A DNA stretch of 7,678 nt, taken from the IMG/VR virus record IMGVR_UViG_3300029417_000062, positions 1 to 7,678 of that record; one strand, 5' to 3'. Under the pieces are notes generated by a model, which worked only from the letters and a program-made list of their open reading frames with translations, made no database searches and was not told where the DNA came from. This DNA is from a virus. Lineage: Duplodnaviria > Heunggongvirae > Uroviricota > Caudoviricetes. The first letter of the stretch is position 1, and every line of letters starts with the position of its first letter. The position numbers and the translations under genes are program-made. This document shows positions 1 through 7,678 of the stretch, in pieces.

Positions 1-505
1 GCTTAAGCTCCGGATACATGGCGTTAACTTCTGGCATTTTCATCAACGCTTCAACGATATGTCCGTCGAATGTTGCCATGTCTTCCTGCAACAATTCCTG
101 TGCGCTAATAACCATATCAACGGTGATGTTTTCACATGTGTCGAACTTAACCATGACAGCGTTCTGTACTTCAGGGGCCAGCTTGTCAAAAGTGACGTTC
201 ATCGGATCGGATTCAGTCTCAACCGGGACAAAAGAAGCAGACTCCTCATCCCAGCGGTTTTCCTGCATATATTCAGCATCCCATGAATCGAGGGCAGGGC
301 GGGGTATGCCAGGTTTATCCTCGCAGACAATAAATTTATAAGCGCAGTCCTGAGCAGCCGGATAATGTTCCAGGAATTGCCAGTGAAATTTTGCTCGAGC
401 ACGGCGTTCGTCGCCAGCTTCAATGGCTGTGGCTACAGCCACAGCGCCTTCTTCCCTTGTTGCCAGTTCGTCAGGAATAGCGGCGCAAATAAAGACTTTA
501 CTCAT
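1..505 (-). CDS. Hypothetical prophage protein, partial (168 codons in window; gene runs off the window start). Sits where ydfE lies downstream of ydfD in the Qin dicB operon.
   Basis: Minus-strand ATG at 505..503 (MSKVFICAAIPDELATREEG...), preceded by GAGG about 10 nt upstream. Frame stays open to position 1 with no stop. Acidic, protein-like composition. The ydfE assignment is by position only, from memory. Confidence 0.6.
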   Translation of the reverse strand, partial: MSKVFICAAIPDELATREEGAVAVATAIEAGDERRARAKFHWQFLEHYPAAQDCAYKFIVCEDKPGIPRPALDSWDAEYMQENRWDEESASFVPVETESDPMNVTFDKLAPEVQNAVMVKFDTCENITVDMVISAQELLQEDMATFDGHIVEALMKMPEVNAMYPELK

Positions 506-598
506 TTTGTTTTAACCTCATGACAGATTTAAGGATGAACAAATCCCTGCCATTGCTGGCATATAAGAATGAAACCGGATATTTATTACGGAACTGTT

Positions 599-790
599 TT
601 AAAGACCTGCCGGGATTTCGATATTATACTGGTGAATAACTTTATCGACCGGGTAACAGTTACCGGGAATTTTCTGTTCGGTTGCTGCAGTCATACACTC
701 CTGCATTGTCCTGTGAACACTGACTGCAATATCAACTGGCTCTCCGGAAACAAGAAAAACTGTCAGAACAAGCGCAAATGCTGAATTCAT
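599..790 (-). CDS. ydfD: YdfD-like small protein (63 aa) with N-terminal hydrophobic segment; prophage lysis/toxic membrane protein
   Basis: ATG at 790..788 overlaps the dicB stop (789..787) in an ATGA arrangement. Product MNSAFALVLTVFLVSGEPVD... has a signal/TM-like N-terminus. Length and position match my memory of Qin YdfD. The six-frame track shows a longer ORF (599..844) whose upstream extension lies inside dicB. Confidence 0.75.
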   Translation of the reverse strand: MNSAFALVLTVFLVSGEPVDIAVSVHRTMQECMTAATEQKIPGNCYPVDKVIHQYNIEIPAGL

Positions 791-975
791 TGTGCACATC
801 CTTTTGGCATCAGACGTAAACGAGCCAGCATTGAAACAATGCATATTTTATTTAATAGCTCCCGTTCTTGTTTTCTCTTGTTAATGGCATCTTCAGTAAA
901 TACAGGGTTACTGATAGTGACACCAATTTCAAAACAACCTTCAGACGTATTAACGTTTGGTAATAACGTTTTCAT
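787..975 (-). CDS. dicB: DicB cell-division inhibitor (62 aa; acts through MinC in K-12)
   Basis: ATG at 975..973 with GAGGA 7 nt upstream. Product MKTLLPNVNTSEGCFEIGVTISNPVFTEDAINKRKQERELLNKICIVSMLARLRLMPKGCAQ matches my recollection of DicB in length and sequence. Lies downstream of dicF and upstream of ydfD as in Qin. Confidence 0.8.
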   Translation of the reverse strand: MKTLLPNVNTSEGCFEIGVTISNPVFTEDAINKRKQERELLNKICIVSMLARLRLMPKGCAQ

Positions 976-1145
976 TATCGCGTCCTCAACAATGAATTTT
1001 GTGATGCAGTGCCTGGTGCCTCCAGGTGACGTTAACCAGTTAACAATTAACGCCGGATACAGAGAATCCACCCATAACACTGTTTTTGGTTTTAACTGTT
1101 CCGCGTGCGCTTAGCCGCATTCACCGCATCACAAAATTCACTTTA

Positions 1146-1203
1146 AAAACGGCGGCAGAGCAGTCACGGAGTAAAACTGATACCGCCAAACGTCACCAGA
1201 AAA
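1146..1203 (-). ncRNA. dicF: DicF small RNA (53-nt core 1203..1151 plus U-tract)
   Basis: Reverse complement of 1151..1203 reads TTTCTGGTGACGTTTGGCGGTATCAGTTTTACTCCGTGACTGCTCTGCCGCC, followed by GTTTTT. This matches the DicF sequence as I remember it, including the GGCGG...CCGCC terminator stem. Position between the ydfB/C region and dicB is the canonical one. Confidence 0.85.
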
Positions 1204-1461
1204 TTGATAACAGAGGGCGTTGCAGCGGGGTTGTCGCTTAAGCGTATGGTCAACCTGACAACTCGGTGTCCTCAACGGGGAAGGAATAACCCCGCCATAC
1301 TTACCGCCGCGCCATTTCGCGGGTTGCCACAACCGGAAGCGCACGGTCGAATTAAATTTGACGACACCGTACAGTGAGACGAACTTCGCCGTGCGCTTTC
1401 GTGTTGTGTGCCTGCTTTTAACCACGTCAGGCGAGGTGGTATCCTTAAAATCACCACAGTT

Positions 1462-2037
1462 TTAAGGATTCATTAAGCAATGTCGCAACCACCAATAAAT
1501 CCGCTTAAGAACATGAAAATTGATTACTGGTATAAAGCGCTTACAGTTGTTGGCGCTGCGTTGTTTGTCTTTAATGGAACGTCTTTTTTTGACAGATATC
1601 CCGTTGTTCCATTGGTTTTTTTGTCCTCCGGCATCTTTTTTATTGGTTTGGGGGAGTGGATTAATCACCCTCTCAAAGTGAGATTTATTGGTCCTGGAGT
1701 TTGGACTCGTGGATATAATCGTTCTTCGTGCGCACTCGGTATCATCTTCGACATACTTGGTTGTTTCCTGATTGTTACAGGAGTCGTCAAGTTCTTCTGA
1801 TGTAAAACCGCAAATGGGGCACGTAACGGGAATTTTGAAAAGCGTTTCTCCGGGTTCCAGAACAAAATTTTCTGCGGTCTGATTTTGCTTCTCATATTTG
1901 TGCTCCGCGTCATTGTGAGAGCGCATTCTTATTCTGAGTGCCTGTTTAAACTCACTGAAGCTGAGAGCTTCTTCGCCTTCGGCAAGGCCTTCGAAGTATT
2001 CTTCGTAAGCCTTTTCCATGATTGTGTCGAAATCCAT
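1462..2037 (-). CDS. Hypothetical protein, 191 aa; acidic N-terminal region with a YdfB-like start and a CPxCG motif. The C-terminal half is low-complexity and may be read-through.
   Basis: ATG at 2037..2035 with AGGTGA 5 nt upstream, one nt after the ydfA stop (tight coupling). The first ~85 residues look like real protein (MDFDTIMEKAYEEYFEGLAEGEEALSFSEFKQALRIRMRS...PVTCPICGF). Residues after ~90 are N/K/R/S-rich and lie codon-aligned antisense to the plus ORF 1480..1800, so part of this ORF may be an antisense artefact. In K-12 this interval is annotated as two short genes (ydfB, ydfC). Confidence 0.5.
   Translation of the reverse strand: MDFDTIMEKAYEEYFEGLAEGEEALSFSEFKQALRIRMRSHNDAEHKYEKQNQTAENFVLEPGETLFKIPVTCPICGFTSEELDDSCNNQETTKYVEDDTECARRTIISTSPNSRTNKSHFERVINPLPQTNKKDAGGQKNQWNNGISVKKRRSIKDKQRSANNCKRFIPVINFHVLKRIYWWLRHCLMNP
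1480..1800 (+). CDS. Candidate small membrane protein (106 aa, about 3 predicted TM helices), encoded antisense to the 3' half of the 191-aa minus ORF
   Basis: ATG at 1480 with AAGGA 11 nt upstream. Three clean hydrophobic segments (ALTVVGAALFVF, VVPLVFLSSGIFFIGLG, CALGIIFDILGCFLIVTGVV). Its codons are exactly aligned with the opposite-strand ORF, so one of the two is probably spurious. Confidence 0.3.
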   Translation: MSQPPINPLKNMKIDYWYKALTVVGAALFVFNGTSFFDRYPVVPLVFLSSGIFFIGLGEWINHPLKVRFIGPGVWTRGYNRSSCALGIIFDILGCFLIVTGVVKFF

Positions 2038-2038
2038 A

Positions 2039-2194
2039 TCACTCACCTGAGTTTCTTTCCAGCCAGCGACGGGCACCATTTTCGGTTTTAAACGTTTTGC
2101 TTTTGGTATACGTCATTGCGGTGAACGTGCCGTCCTGGTTTGGAAACACGCCGTACACCAGAGATTCGTTGTTGCCAAGATCGATAGTATCCAT
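2039..2194 (-). CDS. ydfA: YdfA-like small protein (51 aa), first gene of the DicA-repressed leftward operon
   Basis: ATG at 2194..2192 with GAGG 5 nt upstream. Product MDTIDLGNNESLVYGVFPNQDGTFTAMTYTKSKTFKTENGARRWLERNSGE. Length and position next to dicA match Qin ydfA from memory. The track ORF 2039..2350 extends upstream through the promoter region and is not credible beyond this ATG. Confidence 0.75.
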   Translation of the reverse strand: MDTIDLGNNESLVYGVFPNQDGTFTAMTYTKSKTFKTENGARRWLERNSGE

Positions 2195-2270
2195 GCTGAC
2201 CTCATTTCCCCTTAACGCCGGGGTAGCGGAACTGTTTGCTGAGAACACCGTGCGGTGTGTTGATGGAGGT

Positions 2271-2348
2271 AATTTAGTTTTCTCATTATTTTTCGTCAAG
2301 GCTTTTTGATGAGAAAACTCAAGTATTGGCGCAAGATAAAGCCAATAC
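2271..2348 (-). promoter_or_regulatory. Candidate leftward (dicB-operon) promoter with operator-like inverted repeats
   Basis: On the minus strand: -35 TTGACG (2299..2294), 17-bp spacer, -10 TAAATT (2276..2271). A perfect 10-bp inverted repeat AGTTTTCTCA (2276-2285) / TGAGAAAACT (2310-2319) straddles the -35. A second 8-bp inverted repeat GTATTGGC (2323-2330) / GCCAATAC (2341-2348) lies beside it. Confidence 0.4.
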
Positions 2349-2386
2349 ATTGAAATGTAAGGCTTTAAAATTTTGTGAAGGGATGA

Positions 2387-2794
2387 TTATTGATGCTTGT
2401 TGCGTTTGCGAGCCTCTAATAGCTCGGTGAACAGGCGATTAAAATTCTCAACGCGGGCGCGGAGTTCGCTGAGTTGTGCTTGTTGCTCTGATTTAGGAAG
2501 TGCGCGATACAAACGCAGCATCTCTAACTCATCTTCCGATAAGTCTAAGGCACTATCGAGTGAAACAGGGGGAGCTGGTGTTTTGTCCTCGTCGCCAAAC
2601 AGTATCCAGGTTGGTGAACATTGCAATACCTCGGCGAGGCGATGCAAATTTTGCCCGCGCGGGGCTGTATGGTCACTTTCCCATAATGAAATTGATGAGC
2701 CAGATACGCCAGCAGCTTTGCTTAAACCGTTTTGACTTAAACCTACCTGCTTACGTCTTTCTCTAATGCGTTGACCTAAAGTTTTCTCGTTCAT
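2387..2794 (-). CDS. dicA: DicA-like HTH (XRE-family) prophage repressor, 135 aa
   Basis: Product MNEKTLGQRIRERRKQVGLSQNGLSKAAGVSGSSISLWE...VLQCSPTWILFGDEDK... has an N-terminal HTH and the VLQCSPTWILFGDEDK block I recall from DicA. Divergent from the Cro-like gene. Start chosen at ATG 2794..2792 (135 aa); the track ORF uses an ATG 17 codons upstream (2845), which lies in the operator region. Confidence 0.9.
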   Translation of the reverse strand: MNEKTLGQRIRERRKQVGLSQNGLSKAAGVSGSSISLWESDHTAPRGQNLHRLAEVLQCSPTWILFGDEDKTPAPPVSLDSALDLSEDELEMLRLYRALPKSEQQAQLSELRARVENFNRLFTELLEARKRNKHQ

Positions 2795-2871
2795 ATTTAG
2801 ATATCTTAATAACCCTTGACTTGAGATTCCTTGAGTGATTAGCATTGAGAAAACTCAATACTGGAGGTGCG
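2795..2871. promoter_or_regulatory. Divergent dicA/dicC control region (immunity switch) with operator-like repeats and a candidate rightward promoter
   Basis: -35 TTGACT (2816-2821), 18-bp spacer, -10 TAGCAT (2840-2845). Operator-like TTGAGAAAACTCAATACTGG at 2845-2864, and TTGAG repeated at 2821, 2831 and 2845. SD GGAGG at 2863-2867 precedes the dicC ATG at 2872. No evident SD for dicA. Confidence 0.5.
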
Positions 2872-3099
2872 ATGTTTAAATCAGACGTAATTAATTTTTA
2901 CGGTACGAAAGCCAAAGTAGCGAAAGCTGCTGGCGTTGACCCATCTGCTGTTTCTCAATGGCAAGAGCTGGTTCCTGAAGGTCGCGCGATGCGTCTACAG
3001 GAGGCATCTGGCGGCGAGCTTCTGTATGATCCCAAGGTTTATGACGAATATCGTAAGACGAAGCGGGCGGGGCGGTTGAACAATGAAAATCACTCCTGA
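2872..3099 (+). CDS. dicC: DicC-like (Cro-type) small DNA-binding regulator, 75 aa
   Basis: ATG at 2872 with GGAGG 4 nt upstream. Product MFKSDVINFYGTKAKVAKAAGVDPSAVSQWQELVPEGRAMRLQEASGGELLYDPKVYDEYRKTKRAGRLNNENHS; the C-terminal half matches my recollection of DicC. Divergent from the repressor. The track ORF starts at TTG 2845, inside the operator, which is unlikely. Confidence 0.85.
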   Translation: MFKSDVINFYGTKAKVAKAAGVDPSAVSQWQELVPEGRAMRLQEASGGELLYDPKVYDEYRKTKRAGRLNNENHS

Positions 3100-3604
3100 A
3101 CAGGCTCGTGAGGCTCTGGATGCCTGGATATGTCGACCAGGAATGACACAGGAGCAGGCGACGATATTAATCACTGAAGCATTCTGGGCTTTGAAAGAGC
3201 GCCCGAACATCGATGTTCAGCGTGTCACAGATGAAGGTGGCGCGGTTGATCAGCGAGCGCTTGGCGTTAATCGAGTGAAGATATTCGAACGCTGGAAGGC
3301 TATCGACACCAGGGATAAGCGTGAAAAGTTCACGGCGCTAGTGCCTGCAATTATGGAGGCTATCCGGATTAATGATTTCAGGTTGTATCGTGAAATTAGT
3401 GACGGAAAAAGCATCACGTACATGATCGCCGGGTTAAACAAAGAATATGGCGATGTGGTGGAGTCCGGACTGCTTTTTGCTGATCCTGCCGTAGTGGATC
3501 GTGAAACTGACGAACTTATAGAAAAAGCAATTGCTTTCAAACTTGCGTATCGACAGCAATACCAACAAAAAGCTGGATGGAATTATGAGCCTTCTTTTTG
3601 CTGA
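3083..3604 (+). CDS. YdaT-family prophage protein (173 aa), second gene of the rightward immunity/replication operon
   Basis: ATG at 3083 overlaps the dicC 3' end by 17 nt. Position after the Cro-like gene and the motif ...FTALVPAIMEAI... resemble Rac YdaT (from memory). Confidence 0.75.
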   Translation: MKITPEQAREALDAWICRPGMTQEQATILITEAFWALKERPNIDVQRVTDEGGAVDQRALGVNRVKIFERWKAIDTRDKREKFTALVPAIMEAIRINDFRLYREISDGKSITYMIAGLNKEYGDVVESGLLFADPAVVDRETDELIEKAIAFKLAYRQQYQQKAGWNYEPSFC

Positions 3605-4550
3605 ACGCCCACTGGTTATAAACACACAGCTTGCGATGAAGATTGGCTTAAATGAAGCCATTGTGTTGCAGCAGTTGCATTACTGGTTGAGAGATACCAA
3701 TTCCGGCATGGAATGTGATGGTGTTCGCTGGATTTACAACACAACGGAACAATGGCTGGAACAGTTCCCATTCTGGTCAGAGTCAACGTTAAAGCGCGCG
3801 TTTGCAAGTCTGAAAACGCTGGGGCTTTTGCGTTGTGAAAAGCTCAATAAATCAAAGCGCGATATGACCAATTTCTACACGATTAACTATGGAAGCGAGC
3901 TTTTAGATGATGGCAAATTGAGCGAATCCATCGGTTCAAAATGCGCCGCTCCATCAGGTCAAAATGACACGATGGAAGAGGTCAAAATGAAACGCTCCAT
4001 TGGTTCAAAACGACCCAATGTCATCGGGTCAAAATGGCCCGATGATCCTACAGAGAATACAACAGAGATTACTACAGAGAATAAAAACACTTTTCGTCCG
4101 GAAGCTTCGCAACCGGACCCGCAGACGGCTGAACAGGATTTTTTAATCCGGCACCCTGGCGCAGTTGTGTTTAGTGCGAAAAAACGCCAGTGGGGTAGCC
4201 AGGAGGATCTGGCGTGTGCGCAGTGGATATGGGGGCGGATCGTGGGTCTCTACGAACAGGCCGCCAGTGATGATGGCGAGATCATGCGACCAAAAGAGCC
4301 TAACTGGACTGTCTGGGCCAATGATGTGCGCACAATGCGGATGCTGGATGGCAGAAGCCACAGACAAATTTGTGAAATGTTTGGTCGGGTACAGCGGGAT
4401 CCATTCTGGGTAAAAAACATCATGAGCCCGTCAAAGCTCCGCGAAAAATGGGACGAACTGGTCATCCGCCTGGGGCGTTCACCTGTACAGCGTTGTGTTA
4501 ATCATATTTCTGAACCGGATACAGAAATTCCGCCTGGTTTCAGAGGATAA
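3585..4550 (+). CDS. Lambda O-like replication initiator (321 aa) with the origin (iterons) inside its coding sequence
   Basis: C-terminal block TVWANDVRTMRMLDGRSHRQICEMFGRVQRDPFWVKNIMSPSKLREKWDELVI resembles the lambda O C-terminus as I recall it (AGWANDIRLMRERDGRNHRDMCVLFRWACQDNFWSGNVLSPAKLRDKWTQLEI). An iteron array sits mid-gene. Start ambiguous: ATG 3585 (chosen, overlaps the ydaT end) versus TTG 3531 used by the track. Confidence 0.85.
   Translation: MSLLFAERPLVINTQLAMKIGLNEAIVLQQLHYWLRDTNSGMECDGVRWIYNTTEQWLEQFPFWSESTLKRAFASLKTLGLLRCEKLNKSKRDMTNFYTINYGSELLDDGKLSESIGSKCAAPSGQNDTMEEVKMKRSIGSKRPNVIGSKWPDDPTENTTEITTENKNTFRPEASQPDPQTAEQDFLIRHPGAVVFSAKKRQWGSQEDLACAQWIWGRIVGLYEQAASDDGEIMRPKEPNWTVWANDVRTMRMLDGRSHRQICEMFGRVQRDPFWVKNIMSPSKLREKWDELVIRLGRSPVQRCVNHISEPDTEIPPGFRG
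3928..4096. repeat. Candidate phage replication origin: five direct iterons (about 22-25 bp period) followed by an A-rich tract
   Basis: Units start near 3928, 3951, 3974, 3997 and 4021, with core GGT(T)CAAAA(T/C)G, similar to the TCAAAACG core of lambda ori iterons. Followed by a purine/A-rich tract 4047-4096 (ACAGAGAATACAACAGAGATTACTACAGAGAATAAAAACAC). Confidence 0.6.
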
Positions 4551-4590
4551 GTTTTGATTTCAGGTCATGAGGTAATTTTAAGGGGGACTT

Positions 4591-4992
4591 GTGGCAAAAG
4601 TTTTTACACAAGAAGAGCGGGAAAAAATTAAAGGGCAGGTGGTGGAACTCGTGCGCCAGAGCGGTCGTGAGACGTTACGGCAACTGGAAGCTAAAACAGG
4701 TGCGACTAGATATCTGATGAGCGTTCTTGCCAGAGAGCTGGTAGCCAGTGGCGATGTATACAACTCCGGCTACGGGTTATTCCCGTCTGAACAGGCGCGT
4801 AAGGACTGGCAAAACGCCCGCAAAAAACTCTCGAGGGCAAAGGTGAAGAAAACAGCTGTGGTTGATCCGGACCTTATCTGGTCGTTACCTGATGGAGAAA
4901 TACGTCGCTACGACAGTCGCCTAAACATAATCTGTCGCGAGTGCCGGATGAGTGAAGTTATGCAGCGCATACTGGCATTTTATCAGGGATAA
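4591..4992 (+). CDS. Hypothetical protein, 133 aa, possible HTH/winged-helix; occupies the position where a helicase loader (P/DnaC-like) would be expected
   Basis: GTG start at 4591 with AGGGGG 4 nt upstream. Coherent protein-like ORF (MAKVFTQEEREKIKGQVVELVRQSGRETLRQLEAKTGATRYLMSVLARELV...). No similarity to lambda P that I can recognise. Confidence 0.6.
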   Translation: MAKVFTQEEREKIKGQVVELVRQSGRETLRQLEAKTGATRYLMSVLARELVASGDVYNSGYGLFPSEQARKDWQNARKKLSRAKVKKTAVVDPDLIWSLPDGEIRRYDSRLNIICRECRMSEVMQRILAFYQG

Positions 4993-5088
4993 TGTTAGGT
5001 ATTTTAGACGTTACTAGATTAAAAAGCATTAGTTCAGGAGTGAATTGACATTCTCATTTTTCATGGCACAGGGTAGATCTGGCGTGGT

Positions 5089-5114
5089 TGTCCGCTTTGT
5101 GCCAAAAGCGGACA
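5089..5114. terminator. Hairpin between convergent genes; possible bidirectional terminator
   Basis: Perfect 10-bp stem TGTCCGCTTT (5089-5098) / AAAGCGGACA (5105-5114) with a 6-nt loop. Flanking U-tracts are weak on both strands, so terminator function is uncertain. Confidence 0.3.
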
Positions 5115-5210
5115 TCGAATAATTTCAGCAGCACTCAACCTTATTAACCAAATCGCCTCAACTCATATGGACATGCATCCGGAAGTGCCAACTTCGTAAA
5201 CTTATTCACT

Positions 5211-6591
5211 TTAAGTCTGAGCCTCACTCTCTTGGCCATAAGTGGCTTGCCAGTATCTCGCCGTAGGGTTCATTAGAATGTGCAATACAAGCCACCATGC
5301 AAAAATGCAGGGAGGTTGATTGTAGTAACCGGCAGGCACATATCCGTGAGCTAGTTGATTTCGTAAATCACCATAGATTTTATCTACCAGTAAGGCCTGA
5401 AGATTGCCAATTATGTCTACGCCGAAAGCTTCAATAATCAGTGGATTATCTAGTAATCCCTTGAGTCCATTTCGCTCTTGCGAACCGTCCCCGTGAAGCT
5501 GCGATGGTTCCTCACCTTTAATTTTAGCCACATATCTCAGACTATTTTCGATCTGGGGAATCAACACGTGGCATGCCGTCATAAAATCTCCATTGAAACC
5601 GCAAACCATACCCTTGATGAAAAACTCTTCATGCCCAAACGGGATGAAGGGATGATTGATGAACATATCGCGAAAAAACGCCTCCGAGATTGGATATTTC
5701 ATTGTGATCTCATCTGTAGCAGGAATAATTTGCCCAGCTACTGCCAACTCATGGTCGATACGCATTCTCGTCATCATTATGGGCCAAATAACTGCCCCAT
5801 TTGCATCATCAATCCCCAATCCTGCGGGTATGCGAGCAAGTGTCATTCCCTCATGATCAATATGTGTTGATCCAAACATCCAAGCTATGCTGTTGGCCTT
5901 TTGTTCTATTGCTTGAGCCTTAAGTCTCTCAATGCTGGTTGGCCGACAGACCAGCATCGCAAGTCTGAAAACCATATCAAACATATCTCTTCCGACTACC
6001 CGACTCTTGGCTTGATGGACAATCTCACTAATATCTTGAGGGGGAGACTGAAGGATAGACATCTGGTGACGGGATTCGATTTGGTAATCACGCATTTCTT
6101 CATACAGCGCAAGACGTTCTATTCGGGTTCCTGGAATATTAGCCAGTGCTTCAATAGCATTCTGCATGCAGGCTGCCGAAATCATACCGCCATCTTGGAA
6201 TTTTGACTCTTCCAGATGTGTATCGGCAAGAAGCCGCCAGAATTCAAACTGTGTATCTCTGTCACAGCACCTATTCGCAATCGTGATTGCGGTTTTACAG
6301 GCATCGACGGCAAATGAAAATAATTTTTGAGCCAGATAGTTTTTTGTCAGAAACAGGAGTTCCTGGGCAATAAAAGATGGCTCACTCACTTTACAGTCGA
6401 TATCGAGTTGCAGGAGTCGCAGCGGATAAGGTGAATCGCCTTGTTCTCTGGTACGTTCATACTCTGCTAGTAGATGTGCCGAAAGCTGATCAAATTCATC
6501 CCTGAAATCAGTATTCTTTCGAAAAAAACAACACAGCCTAAGCGCACGCTCTAGGCGTTCTAAAGCACTAACCCACGTCCCTTGCGATGTC
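5211..6591 (-). CDS. C-terminal portion (about 460 codons) of a large protein with a HEPN-like Rx4HxY motif; 5' end interrupted by the IS. Candidate abortive-infection/toxin RNase.
   Basis: Continuous minus-strand ORF ending at 5211. RNQLAHGY is encoded at 5340..5363 (R 5361-5363, H 5346-5348), about 45 residues from the C-terminus, and fits the HEPN Rx4-6H / HepT-type Rx4HxY signature. The six-frame ORF (5211..6776, 521 aa) takes its first 61 codons from IS sequence. No in-frame ATG occurs in the first ~136 native codons, so the native N-terminus is missing. Confidence 0.6.
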
Positions 6592-6633
6592 TGAACCGCC
6601 CCGGGTTTCCTGGAGAGTGTTTTATCTGTGAAC
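6592..6633. repeat. IS terminal inverted repeat region (orfB-proximal end)
   Basis: Begins with 5'-TG and lies immediately beyond the orfB stop (6634), as expected for an IS3-family end. The other end is outside the window, so the pairing cannot be confirmed. Confidence 0.5.
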
Positions 6634-7524
6634 TCAGGCTGCCAGATCATCGTTTCCGATGGAAGCATAATAAGCTTTTTCTGCTTCTGCCGGAGGAGTA
6701 TGGCCCAGCCTTTCCAGCAATCGTCGATTGTTATACCAGTCCACCCACGTGAGTGTGGCCAGTTCCACTTCTGCACGGTTTTTCCAGCTCTTACGGTGTA
6801 TTACCTCCGCTTTGTAAAGACCATTGATGCTCTCCGCCATCGCGTTGTCATACGAGTCGCCTGTACTTCCTGTTGATGCCAGTAATCCGGCTTCCTTAAG
6901 CCGCTGTGTGTAGGCCAGCGATACATACTGAGAACCTTTATCACTGTGATGGACCGTGCCGGACGGTCGACGGGCCCATAACGCCTGCTCCAGTGCATCC
7001 AGCACGAATGTCGTTTCCATGGACGATGAGACCCGCCACCCCACGATGTATCCGGCAAACACATCAATGATGAACGCCACATAGACGAAGCCCCGCCATG
7101 TGCTGACGTAAGTAAAATCAGCCACCCACAGCTGGTCAGGTCGTTCTGCCACGAACTGACGGTTTACGCGGTCGCCTGCGGCAACGGCTTTCCGGCTGAT
7201 GGTCGTACGGACCTTTTTACCCCGGAGAACACCGGCAAGTCCCATAACCGCCATGAGACGTGCCACAGTGCATCTGGCCACTCTGATACCTTCCCGTAAC
7301 AACTGACGCCAGACTTTACGCACACCGTATACCTTGTGATTTTCATCGTATACGCGCTGTATCTCTTTCTTCAGCCAGTCATCGCGCTGCGCACGGGCAC
7401 TGCGTTTATCCGGATGATGTCGCTGTTGCTGACAGTGGTAATACGTTGACGGGGCAATATGCAGTTCGCTGCATAGCGGTCCGACCCCGTACTGCTCACG
7501 CAGCTTATCCAGCAGTGGCATCAT
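6634..7524 (-). CDS. IS3-family transposase OrfB (DDE integrase-like catalytic domain), 296 aa
   Basis: Product [22 protein letters not shown]... contains D (WVADFTYV), D (HHSDKGSQY) and E ([15 protein letters not shown]) motifs. The start overlaps the orfA stop in the -1 frame. Confidence 0.9.
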
Positions 7525-7678
7525 TTTTTCCAGAGGCGGTCGAACTCCGCCTTCGCAAAATAAGCGGAAGCCTGGCGAAGGATATCGTTACTGCGGCGCA
7601 GTTCACGATTTTCACGTTCCAGCTCTTTCAGACGCTGACGTTCAGCGGTGGTGAGCCCGCCATCACCGCCTCCGGTAT
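7521..7678 (-). CDS. IS3-family transposase OrfA, C-terminal 52 codons (partial; 5' end outside window)
   Basis: Minus-strand frame reads ...[51 protein letters not shown] (leucine-zipper-like), stop at 7523..7521, overlapping the orfB ATG (7524..7522). Confidence 0.85.

What the first reader, a model, noticed from the sequence alone, without database searches (positions are those of the whole stretch)
6592..6776. IS629-like insertion truncates the HEPN gene and creates an in-frame chimeric ORF
The IS end (TGAACCGCC...) begins at 6592, in the middle of the open reading frame. The frame stays open for 61 further codons into the IS and starts at an ATG at 6776 that overlaps the 3' end of orfB. 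The gene may therefore be inactivated, or it may be expressed as an N-terminally altered fusion from IS-derived signals. Insertion into a putative toxin/defence gene could reflect selection to silence it.
Basis: partly seen in the sequence, partly recalled or inferred. Interest (0 to 1): 0.5.

Follow-up and report, generated by a model that had tools for sequence, protein, structure and literature searches.

The report
IS629-like insertion splits prophage HEPN gene
A common E. coli jumping gene (an IS629-like insertion sequence) has landed inside a prophage-borne candidate anti-phage gene and cut off its first 136 codons; the "chimeric" reading frame is most likely a by-product of that ordinary gene knock-out.

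Summary
The right end of a 1310-bp IS3-family element, closest to IS629, starts at 6592. The minus-strand frame of the downstream gene stays open 61 codons into the IS and overlaps the end of orfB. One detail is wrong: the codon at 6776 is GTG, not ATG. In-frame ATGs lie at 6668 and 6650.

Intact alleles, 100% identical over window 2-6591, encode a 595-aa protein. It has a DUF7380 domain, helical repeats and a C-terminal DUF4209/HEPN domain, and it matches PADLOC candidate defence system PDC-S39 (E 8e-103).

A complete genome with the same allele shows a simple insertion with a 3-bp target duplication (GAC). The upstream piece there is a 152-aa ORF. The cut removes conserved residues, including invariant Y128. 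The chimeric frame is the only open frame of the three that read out of this IS end, so it is a 1-in-3 accident. I found no promoter and no above-background ribosome-binding site for it.

Four other IS types hit the same gene elsewhere. That is about what neutral decay of prophage DNA predicts, so selection to silence the gene is untested.

Verdict: an ordinary IS-insertion pseudogene, of low interest.

The parts
5211..6591 (-). Surviving 3' fragment of the interrupted gene: the last 2 nt of codon 136, codons 137-595 and the stop. It holds the helical-repeat region and the C-terminal DUF4209/HEPN domain.
   Evidence: 100% identical to the intact allele L001 5312..6692. Pfam DUF4209 at E 2.5e-8. 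The intact protein matches PADLOC PDC-S39 at E 8e-103.
5214..5801 (-). HEPN-fold domain (residues 400-595 of the intact protein).
5346..5363 (-). RNQLAH, the Rx4H HEPN catalytic-type motif (R546...H551 of the intact protein).
   Evidence: Read directly from the sequence. R546 and H551 are invariant in 47 homologues down to 25% identity.
6589..6591 (.). GTC (GAC on the gene strand): the copy of the 3-bp target-site duplication next to the right IS end.
   Evidence: In L005 the two flanks overlap by 3 bp relative to the intact allele. GAC is present at both IS ends.
6592..6618 (-). Right terminal inverted repeat (IRR) of the IS. It begins TGAACCGCCCCGGG and matches IRL at 24 of 27 positions.
   Evidence: IRL and IRR compared in the complete copy, L005 8750..10059.
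6592..7678 (-). 1087 nt of a 1310-bp IS3-family element, IS629-like. The window is cut off inside orfA. The transposase genes run in the same direction as the interrupted gene.
   Evidence: Only 2 mismatches to the full copy in L005. 100% identical to a copy that PGAP labels 'IS629 family' over 795 nt, and about 96% identical to IS1203 copies.
6634..7524 (-). IS orfB, the DDE (rve) transposase domain, 296 codons.
   Evidence: Pfam rve at E 8e-28 and HTH_21. NCBIfam transpos_IS3 at E 1e-93.
7450..7566 (-). ALIL pseudoknot, the programmed -1 frameshift element between orfA and orfB.
   Evidence: Rfam RF01497, 120.2 bits, E 1.3e-31.
7521..7678 (-). 3' part of IS orfA. The start codon lies outside the window.
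   Evidence: Mapped from the L005 gene calls through the window-to-L005 alignment.
6592..6776 (-). IS-derived 5' extension of the chimeric ORF: 61 codons plus 2 nt. Possible starts are GTG 6776, ATG 6668 and ATG 6650.
   Evidence: Public callers chose ATG 6668 (485 aa) or ATG 6650 (479 aa). There is no evidence that any of these starts is used.

Best explanation
A 1310-bp IS3-family insertion sequence closest to IS629 transposed into a 595-aa single-gene candidate anti-phage defence gene. The breakpoint is after nt 410 of the gene, which falls inside codon 137. The gene encodes DUF7380, TPR-like helical repeats and a C-terminal DUF4209/HEPN domain, matches PADLOC PDC-S39, and sits on a Qin/Rac-like cryptic lambdoid prophage of E. 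coli.

The event was a simple insertion that duplicated 3 bp (GAC). It split the gene into two pieces:
- a 152-aa N-terminal ORF, outside this window, made of 136 native codons followed by 16 altered codons that run across the junction into the IS;
- a 3' fragment with native codons 137-595.

The 3' fragment has lost its promoter, its start codon and conserved parts of the N-terminal domain. It is most likely a non-functional pseudogene.

The 521-codon chimeric ORF exists only because the gene's frame happens to coincide with the single frame that is open through the right end of this IS. The allele is inherited in an E. coli lineage and has not yet accumulated any further mutation.

Shown: the insertion point, the target duplication, the IS identity, the intact architecture and the HEPN fold. 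Inferred: loss of function and lack of expression of the 3' fragment.
For: - Intact allele: 595 aa, and 100% identical to window 2-6591.
- Complete genome CP164011.1 (L005) has N-fragment, 1310-bp IS and C-fragment in order, with a 3-bp overlap that marks the target duplication.
- In GCA_005388865.1 both junctions lie at contig ends.
- The exact 152-aa N-fragment, including its IS-derived tail, occurs on 27 contigs and in 31 index blocks, including several ENA metagenome assemblies.
- IS family.
- Domains: DUF7380 at residues 4-166 and DUF4209 at 484-573. PDC-S39 at E 8e-103.
- The break at 136/137 lies inside DUF7380, at the end of helix 119-137 in a model with pLDDT 89.9.
- The cut removes invariant Y128 and the nearly invariant A104, R105, D108, W111, A124 and S131.
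- Only one of three outward frames is open.
- No sigma-70-like promoter and no terminator on the minus strand near the junction.
- Shine-Dalgarno duplex energies of the three IS-internal starts are -1.9 to -3.9 kcal/mol. The background is -2.2 +/- 2.5.
Against: - No expression data exist.
- The IS is co-directional with the gene, and I found no convincing terminator between orfB and the junction. Read-through transcripts from the native promoter or the weak IS promoter could therefore reach the fragment.
- ATG 6650 lies 12 nt upstream of the orfB stop, so ribosomes might re-initiate there.
- The HEPN domain and its Rx4H motif are intact, and the fragment is still 100% identical to intact alleles. 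Residual activity cannot be excluded.
Confidence: 0.88

Rival explanations
1. Adaptive silencing. The defence or toxin gene is costly or self-toxic, and IS insertions that inactivate it are favoured by selection. That would explain why this allele persists and why the gene is hit repeatedly.
For: Five independent IS alleles exist in this 1788-nt gene:
- an IS2-type end at nt 333/334 (L019);
- the IS629-like element at nt 410 (this window);
- an 83%-related IS3-family element at nt 1239-1244 (L006);
- IS4 at nt 1306-1317 (L007);
- an IS66-family element at nt 1543-1555 (L020, at least 22 contigs).

The window's allele is seen in many samples. Copies of the same IS also sit in hipA and in an ABC-three-component gene in other genomes.
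Against: - Only 2 of 153 carriers among complete genomes have an IS inside the gene, about 1.3%.
- By my own rough estimate, a genome with tens of IS copies in 5 Mb would hit a neutral 1.8-kb target about 1% of the time, so the rate looks neutral.
- The other alleles come from a collection of billions of sequences, where rare neutral events are expected to turn up.
- 146 or more complete genomes keep an uninterrupted copy at 99% identity or higher.
- No length-matched control gene was counted.
Confidence: 0.2
2. Functional chimera. The 3' fragment is transcribed by read-through from the IS or the native promoter and translated from an IS-internal start (ATG 6668, ATG 6650 or GTG 6776). This would give an N-terminally altered HEPN protein that keeps activity, or gains deregulated activity.
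For: - The ORF is open and in frame.
- The IS is co-directional with the gene.
- There is no strong terminator after orfB.
- The HEPN domain and its motif are intact.
- Gene callers annotate it as a CDS.
- An IS2 insertion in DEC9A creates a similar chimera.
Against: - The open frame is a 1/3 accident.
- Ribosome-binding sites are at background level.
- There is no junction promoter.
- The cut removes invariant and nearly invariant residues, and it breaks a helix inside a continuous helical-repeat array. The remnant probably does not fold or regulate as the native protein does.
- A deregulated HEPN RNase would be toxic and unlikely to persist in a lineage.
Confidence: 0.07
3. Assembly artefact. 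The junction is a mis-join at a repeated IS rather than a true insertion.
For: IS629-like copies are very abundant: 4264 of 5426 complete genomes have matches. They often break or mis-join short-read assemblies. No complete RefSeq E. coli genome holds this junction.
Against: - The same junction is present in a closed 5.15-Mb chromosome (CP164011.1), with both flanks collinear with the intact locus and a clean 3-bp target duplication.
- The left junction was recovered independently in more than 20 contigs from different samples. The right junction was recovered in two further assemblies, one genome and one metagenome.
Confidence: 0.01

Closest known systems
IS629 / IS1203 / IS3411 group of the IS3 family (insertional gene inactivation in E. 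coli and Shigella)
   Same: - 1310 bp, with TG...CA termini and imperfect inverted repeats of about 27 bp.
- orfA and orfB with an ALIL -1 frameshift pseudoknot.
- An rve (DDE) transposase.
- A 3-bp target duplication.
- 100% identical over 795 nt to a copy that PGAP labels 'IS629 family', and about 96% identical to IS1203 copies of O157 and O111.
   Different: Nothing unusual. It is about 4% diverged from the O157-type IS1203/IS629. The exact ISfinder name could not be checked here.
PADLOC PDC-S39 (single-gene phage defence candidate) / bacterial C6orf70-ERMARD-type HEPN family (Pfam DUF4209; Anantharaman et al. 2013, PMC3710099)
   Same: - The intact allele matches both PDC-S39 profiles nearly end to end (E about 1e-102).
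- It has DUF4209 with an invariant Rx4H motif, a HEPN fold, and TPR-like repeats as described for that family.
- A distant homologue sits between gpA and gpQ of a P2-like phage. From my own knowledge, that position is the P2 anti-phage hotspot.
   Different: The copy in this window lacks residues 1-136 and its native start. PDC-S39 itself is only a candidate: I found no experimental test of defence or RNase activity in the searchable literature.
IS-generated hybrid genes and promoters (IS-driven activation or fusion of neighbouring genes)
   Same: An IS end abuts a coding sequence in frame, so an ORF spans the junction.
   Different: Known activating cases rely on an outward promoter, or on a -35 box in the IS end paired with a -10 box in the flank. 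No such pair was found at this junction, and translation signals are at background level.

Membership tests
IS3 family (IS629-like) | DDE (rve) transposase made from orfA and orfB by programmed -1 frameshifting | tested here: met
   Pfam rve and HTH_21. NCBIfam transpos_IS3 at E 1e-93. ALIL pseudoknot at 120 bits, spanning the orfA/orfB overlap.
IS3 family (IS629-like) | Terminal inverted repeats ending 5'-TG...CA-3', and an element length of about 1.2-1.5 kb | tested here: met
   IRL and IRR are TGAACCGCCCCGGG..., matching at 24 of 27 positions. The full copy in L005 is 1310 bp. Only the IRR is inside the window.
IS3 family (IS629-like) | Short (3-4 bp) direct target-site duplication | tested here: met
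   3-bp GAC at both ends in L005, present once in the intact allele.
IS3 family (IS629-like) | At least 95% identity to the ISfinder IS629 reference (the iso-form criterion) | not testable with these tools
   No ISfinder reference is available here. As a proxy, the element is 100% identical over 795 nt to a PGAP 'IS629 family' copy and 96% identical to PGAP 'IS1203' copies.
HEPN superfamily | Conserved Rx4-6H motif | tested here: met
   RNQLAH at window 5346-5363(-). R546 and H551 are invariant in 47 homologues.
HEPN superfamily | All-alpha HEPN helical-bundle fold | tested here: met
HEPN superfamily | Metal-independent endoribonuclease activity | not testable with these tools
   This needs biochemistry.
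PADLOC PDC-S39 / DUF7380+DUF4209 architecture | Full-length match to the family profile, with N-terminal DUF7380 and C-terminal DUF4209 | tested here: not met
   The intact allele meets it. The ORF in this window keeps only DUF4209, and DUF7380 is no longer detected. This copy is therefore a truncated remnant of a member, not an intact member.
PADLOC PDC-S39 / DUF7380+DUF4209 architecture | Demonstrated anti-phage activity | not tested
   It has candidate status only. No experimental paper was found.

The most novel reading that the evidence does not exclude
The IS insertion might not be a dead end. It could act as a switch on a costly prophage HEPN defence gene in either of two ways:
- the N-terminally truncated HEPN protein is produced at low level from read-through transcripts and IS-internal start codons, and has deregulated or altered activity;
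- the insertion is a reversible OFF state, restored by IEE-promoted precise excision of IS629-type elements (PMC9330008).

Under either reading, the five independent IS alleles would reflect selection rather than drift.
Probability: 0.07. Interest if true: 0.5.

Novelty: already known. Interest (0 to 1): 0.17.

Why it matters
The main value is for annotation. Public records call the two halves separate genes, labelling them "DUF7380 domain-containing protein" and "DUF4209 domain-containing protein". One record even calls the chimeric ORF "ISSfl4 transposase OrfC". They should be one IS-disrupted pseudogene.

Defence-system scanners would still detect the truncated C-terminal copy through its DUF4209 domain. 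They should not score it as a complete, functional PDC-S39.

There is also a modest biological point. This untested HEPN candidate defence gene exists in natural intact alleles and in several independently disrupted ones. That gives ready-made isogenic-like material for testing whether PDC-S39 defends against phage and whether it carries a cost.

Tried and rejected
- Exact junction search in one-genome-per-species genome contigs and in IMG/VR: no hits. This says little, because the allele is strain-specific.
- Junction megablast against complete RefSeq E. coli: no genome spans it.
- Look-up of the 521-aa GTG-start product: not on record. The ATG-start versions were found.
- SCU-482 first looked like an IS5 disruption of the gene. 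The IS5 is intergenic and the gene is intact.
- The source name 'ISSfl4 transposase OrfC' for the chimeric ORF is a misannotation. ISSfl4 is a 2.6-kb element, and I judge it unrelated.
- Promoter and terminator scan: nothing above the shuffled expectation, and nothing at the junction on the gene strand.
- Literature searches for DUF7380 and for ERMARD+HEPN: nothing.
- I could not do a rigorous test for an excess of IS hits against neighbouring genes. The search tools list at most 60 records per query.

Full report
**1. The observation**

The window is E. coli prophage DNA. TGAACCGCCCCGGG... begins at 6592.

Upstream of it, on the minus strand, lies a 296-codon orfB at 6634..7524. It hits Pfam rve and HTH_21 and NCBIfam transpos_IS3 at E 1e-93. 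An ALIL -1 frameshift pseudoknot lies at 7450..7566, Rfam 120 bits. The window ends inside orfA, so only the right end of the IS is present.

The minus-strand ORF 5211..6776 has 521 codons. Its first 61 codons plus 2 nt (6592-6776) are IS sequence, and they overlap the last 143 nt of orfB in another frame.

The codon at 6776 is GTG, not ATG. The in-frame ATGs are at 6668 and 6650. The frame is actually open for 69 codons, back to a TAA at 6801-6803.

**2. What was interrupted**

Megablast of the flank found the same gene at 99% identity or higher in 153 of 5426 complete E. coli genomes.

In strain MSB1_7C (L001) the gene is an uninterrupted 1788-nt CDS, WP_000340970.1, 595 aa. Window 2-6591 is 100% identical to L001 103-6692. 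The sequences diverge exactly at 6591/6592: the intact allele continues ...GATGTC|ATAATAGC....

The native coding sequence runs a further 407 nt beyond the insertion point. The IS therefore sits after nt 410 of the gene, between residues T136 and S137.

**3. The whole insertion**

The 479-aa and 485-aa ATG-start versions of the chimeric ORF are on record. The closed chromosome CP164011.1 (L005) carries, in order:
- a 152-aa N-terminal ORF with DUF7380;
- a 1310-bp IS;
- the 3' fragment.

Its flanks align to the intact locus with a 3-bp overlap. That overlap is a GAC target-site duplication on the gene strand, read as GTC at window 6589-6591.

IRL and IRR match at 24 of 27 positions and have TG...CA termini. 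The transposase genes run in the same direction as the interrupted gene.

The window differs from L005 at only two positions, both in orfA.

The 152-aa N-fragment, with its IS-encoded tail, can only arise from this insertion. It is recorded on 27 contigs and in 31 index blocks, including several ENA metagenome assemblies. The allele is therefore inherited in a circulating lineage and is not an assembly artefact.

The IS is 100% identical over 795 nt to a copy that PGAP labels 'IS629 family'. It is about 96% identical to IS1203 copies. Relatives occur in 4264 of 5426 complete genomes.

**4. What the gene is**

- The intact protein has DUF7380 at residues 4-166 and DUF4209 at residues 484-573.
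- It matches both PADLOC PDC-S39 profiles almost end to end, E 8e-103. PDC-S39 is a single-gene phage defence candidate. I found no experimental test of it.
- Anantharaman et al. 2013 place DUF4209 in the C6orf70 family of HEPN domains. They describe catalytically active bacterial members and fusions to TPR repeats (PMC3710099).
- Homologues of about 590-650 aa with the same architecture occur in Enterobacteriaceae, Vibrio, Aeromonas, Shewanella, Pseudomonas and cyanobacteria.
- In an alignment of 47 homologues, down to 25% identity, R546 and H551 (RNQLAH, window 5346-5363) are invariant. So are Q482, E484, S486 and R488.
- The full-length AlphaFold model (pLDDT 89.9) shows a small N-terminal alpha/beta region, a long helical-repeat array and a C-terminal helical domain.
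- Whole-model Foldseek and PDB profile searches found only weak TPR-like matches.

Context also fits an accessory or defence gene:
- The window carries DicF, plus dicB, ydfD, ydfA, cI/cro-like genes, YdaT and DUF977.
- In intact loci the gene sits next to hokD and rem. From my own knowledge, this is a Qin/Rac-like cryptic prophage and the slot is a variable one.
- A 24%-identical DUF4209 protein lies between gpA and gpQ of a P2-like phage. From my own knowledge, that is the P2 anti-phage hotspot.

**5. Consequence of the insertion**

The break lies inside DUF7380, at the end of helix 119-137 of a continuous helical array. It removes invariant Y128 and the nearly invariant A104, R105, D108, W111, A124 and S131. 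It also removes the native start codon and promoter. In the 521-aa chimeric ORF only DUF4209 is still detected.

Expression signals for the remnant are unconvincing:
- There is no sigma-70-like site on the gene strand at or near the junction. Scan hits in the region do not exceed the shuffled expectation.
- Anti-Shine-Dalgarno duplex energies for GTG 6776, ATG 6668 and ATG 6650 are -3.9, -1.9 and -3.5 kcal/mol. The window background is -2.2 +/- 2.5.

The chimeric frame is not remarkable in itself. Of the three frames reading out through the IRR, exactly one is open, for 69 codons, and it contains GTG, ATG and ATG. One same-orientation insertion in three would create such an ORF. An IS2-type insertion at nt 333/334 in strain DEC9A does the same.

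What cannot be excluded is low-level read-through from the native or IS promoter. There is no convincing terminator after orfB. Ribosomes might also re-initiate near the orfB stop. Both points are inference, not observation.

**6. Selection to silence?**

I found five independent IS alleles in this gene:

| IS | Position in gene (nt) | Source |
|---|---|---|
| IS2-type | 333/334 | L019 |
| IS629-like | 410 | this window |
| IS3-family element, 83% related | 1239-1244, opposite orientation | L006 |
| IS4 | 1306-1317 | L007 |
| IS66-family | about 1543-1555 | L020, 22 contigs |

This looks suggestive, but it is not evidence of selection:
- Among complete genomes only 2 of 153 carriers have an IS in the gene.
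- That is roughly what a neutral 1.8-kb target would collect in genomes with tens of IS copies (my estimate).
- The remaining alleles come from a very large sequence collection, where rare events are expected.
- No control gene could be counted with the tools available.

The 3' fragment is still identical to intact alleles, so the insertion is recent. That gives no signal of either decay or constraint.

IS629-type elements can be excised precisely with the help of IEE (PMC9330008). In principle the knock-out is therefore reversible. That was not tested here.

**7. Verdict**

The most likely reading is a routine IS-insertion pseudogene of a catalogued but unvalidated candidate defence gene. The chimeric ORF is a by-product. 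Claims of fusion expression or adaptive silencing are not supported by anything found here.

Novelty is low and interest is low. The practical use is correcting annotation. The natural intact and disrupted alleles could also be used to test PDC-S39.

Noticed in passing
window 1150-1201 (-): DicF antisense sRNA (Rfam RF00039, 72.5 bits). Its neighbours are dicB, ydfD, ydfA, cI/cro-like, YdaT and DUF977 genes. The window is a Qin/Rac-like cryptic lambdoid prophage. In L005 it lies next to a 339-aa zinc-ADH gene (rspB-like, from my own knowledge).
   Followed up: partly
L013 2192-3700 (ENA ERZ27310226 k141_153161): This contig has the same insertion allele, but the IS copy itself appears interrupted within orfB by a group II intron ORF (RVT_1 + GIIM, 502 aa). 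That would be a nested mobile-element insertion.
   Followed up: no
L005 8750-8804 (outside the window; left IS junction): The 152-aa N-terminal fragment reads into IRL and stops only 5 nt before the orfA start codon. Translation from the native gene's start could therefore be coupled to transposase translation.
   Followed up: no
L019 (DEC9A), L006 (JNEC-KY174), L007 (FDAARGOS_1290), L020 (LM996836.1): Four further independent IS insertions in the same 1788-nt gene: IS2-type, another IS3-family element, IS4 and an IS66-family element. The IS2 allele also creates an in-frame chimeric ORF (P0128, 493 aa).
   Followed up: partly
GDB38244.1 (L003 36-1493): The 485-aa chimeric ORF is named 'ISSfl4 transposase OrfC' by its source record. 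This is a misannotation. RefSeq records annotate the two halves of IS-split alleles as separate DUF7380 and DUF4209 proteins rather than as one pseudogene.
   Followed up: partly
L023 2541-4472 (phage vB_EcoM-569R9, ON470601.1); also AM157366.1 (P2-EC46): A distant DUF4209 homologue (about 24% identity, 643 aa) lies between gpA and gpQ of P2-like phages. That is the position of the P2 tin/old anti-phage hotspot.
   Followed up: partly
H142 (NZ_CP136993.2) and H141 (NZ_CP160112.1): Copies of this IS at 100% identity are annotated as lying in hipA (a toxin) and in an ABC-three-component system gene in other E. coli genomes.
   Followed up: no
window 7659 and 7671: These are the only two differences between the window and CP164011.1 over 7677 nt, and both lie in IS orfA. 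They may reflect a different IS copy or variant, or the collapse of IS copies during assembly.
   Followed up: no
L008 1168-2148 (SCU-482): An IS5 is inserted in the 218-bp spacer between DUF977 and the 3' end of the intact DUF4209 gene. This is another IS in the same small region, but it does not disrupt the gene.
   Followed up: yes
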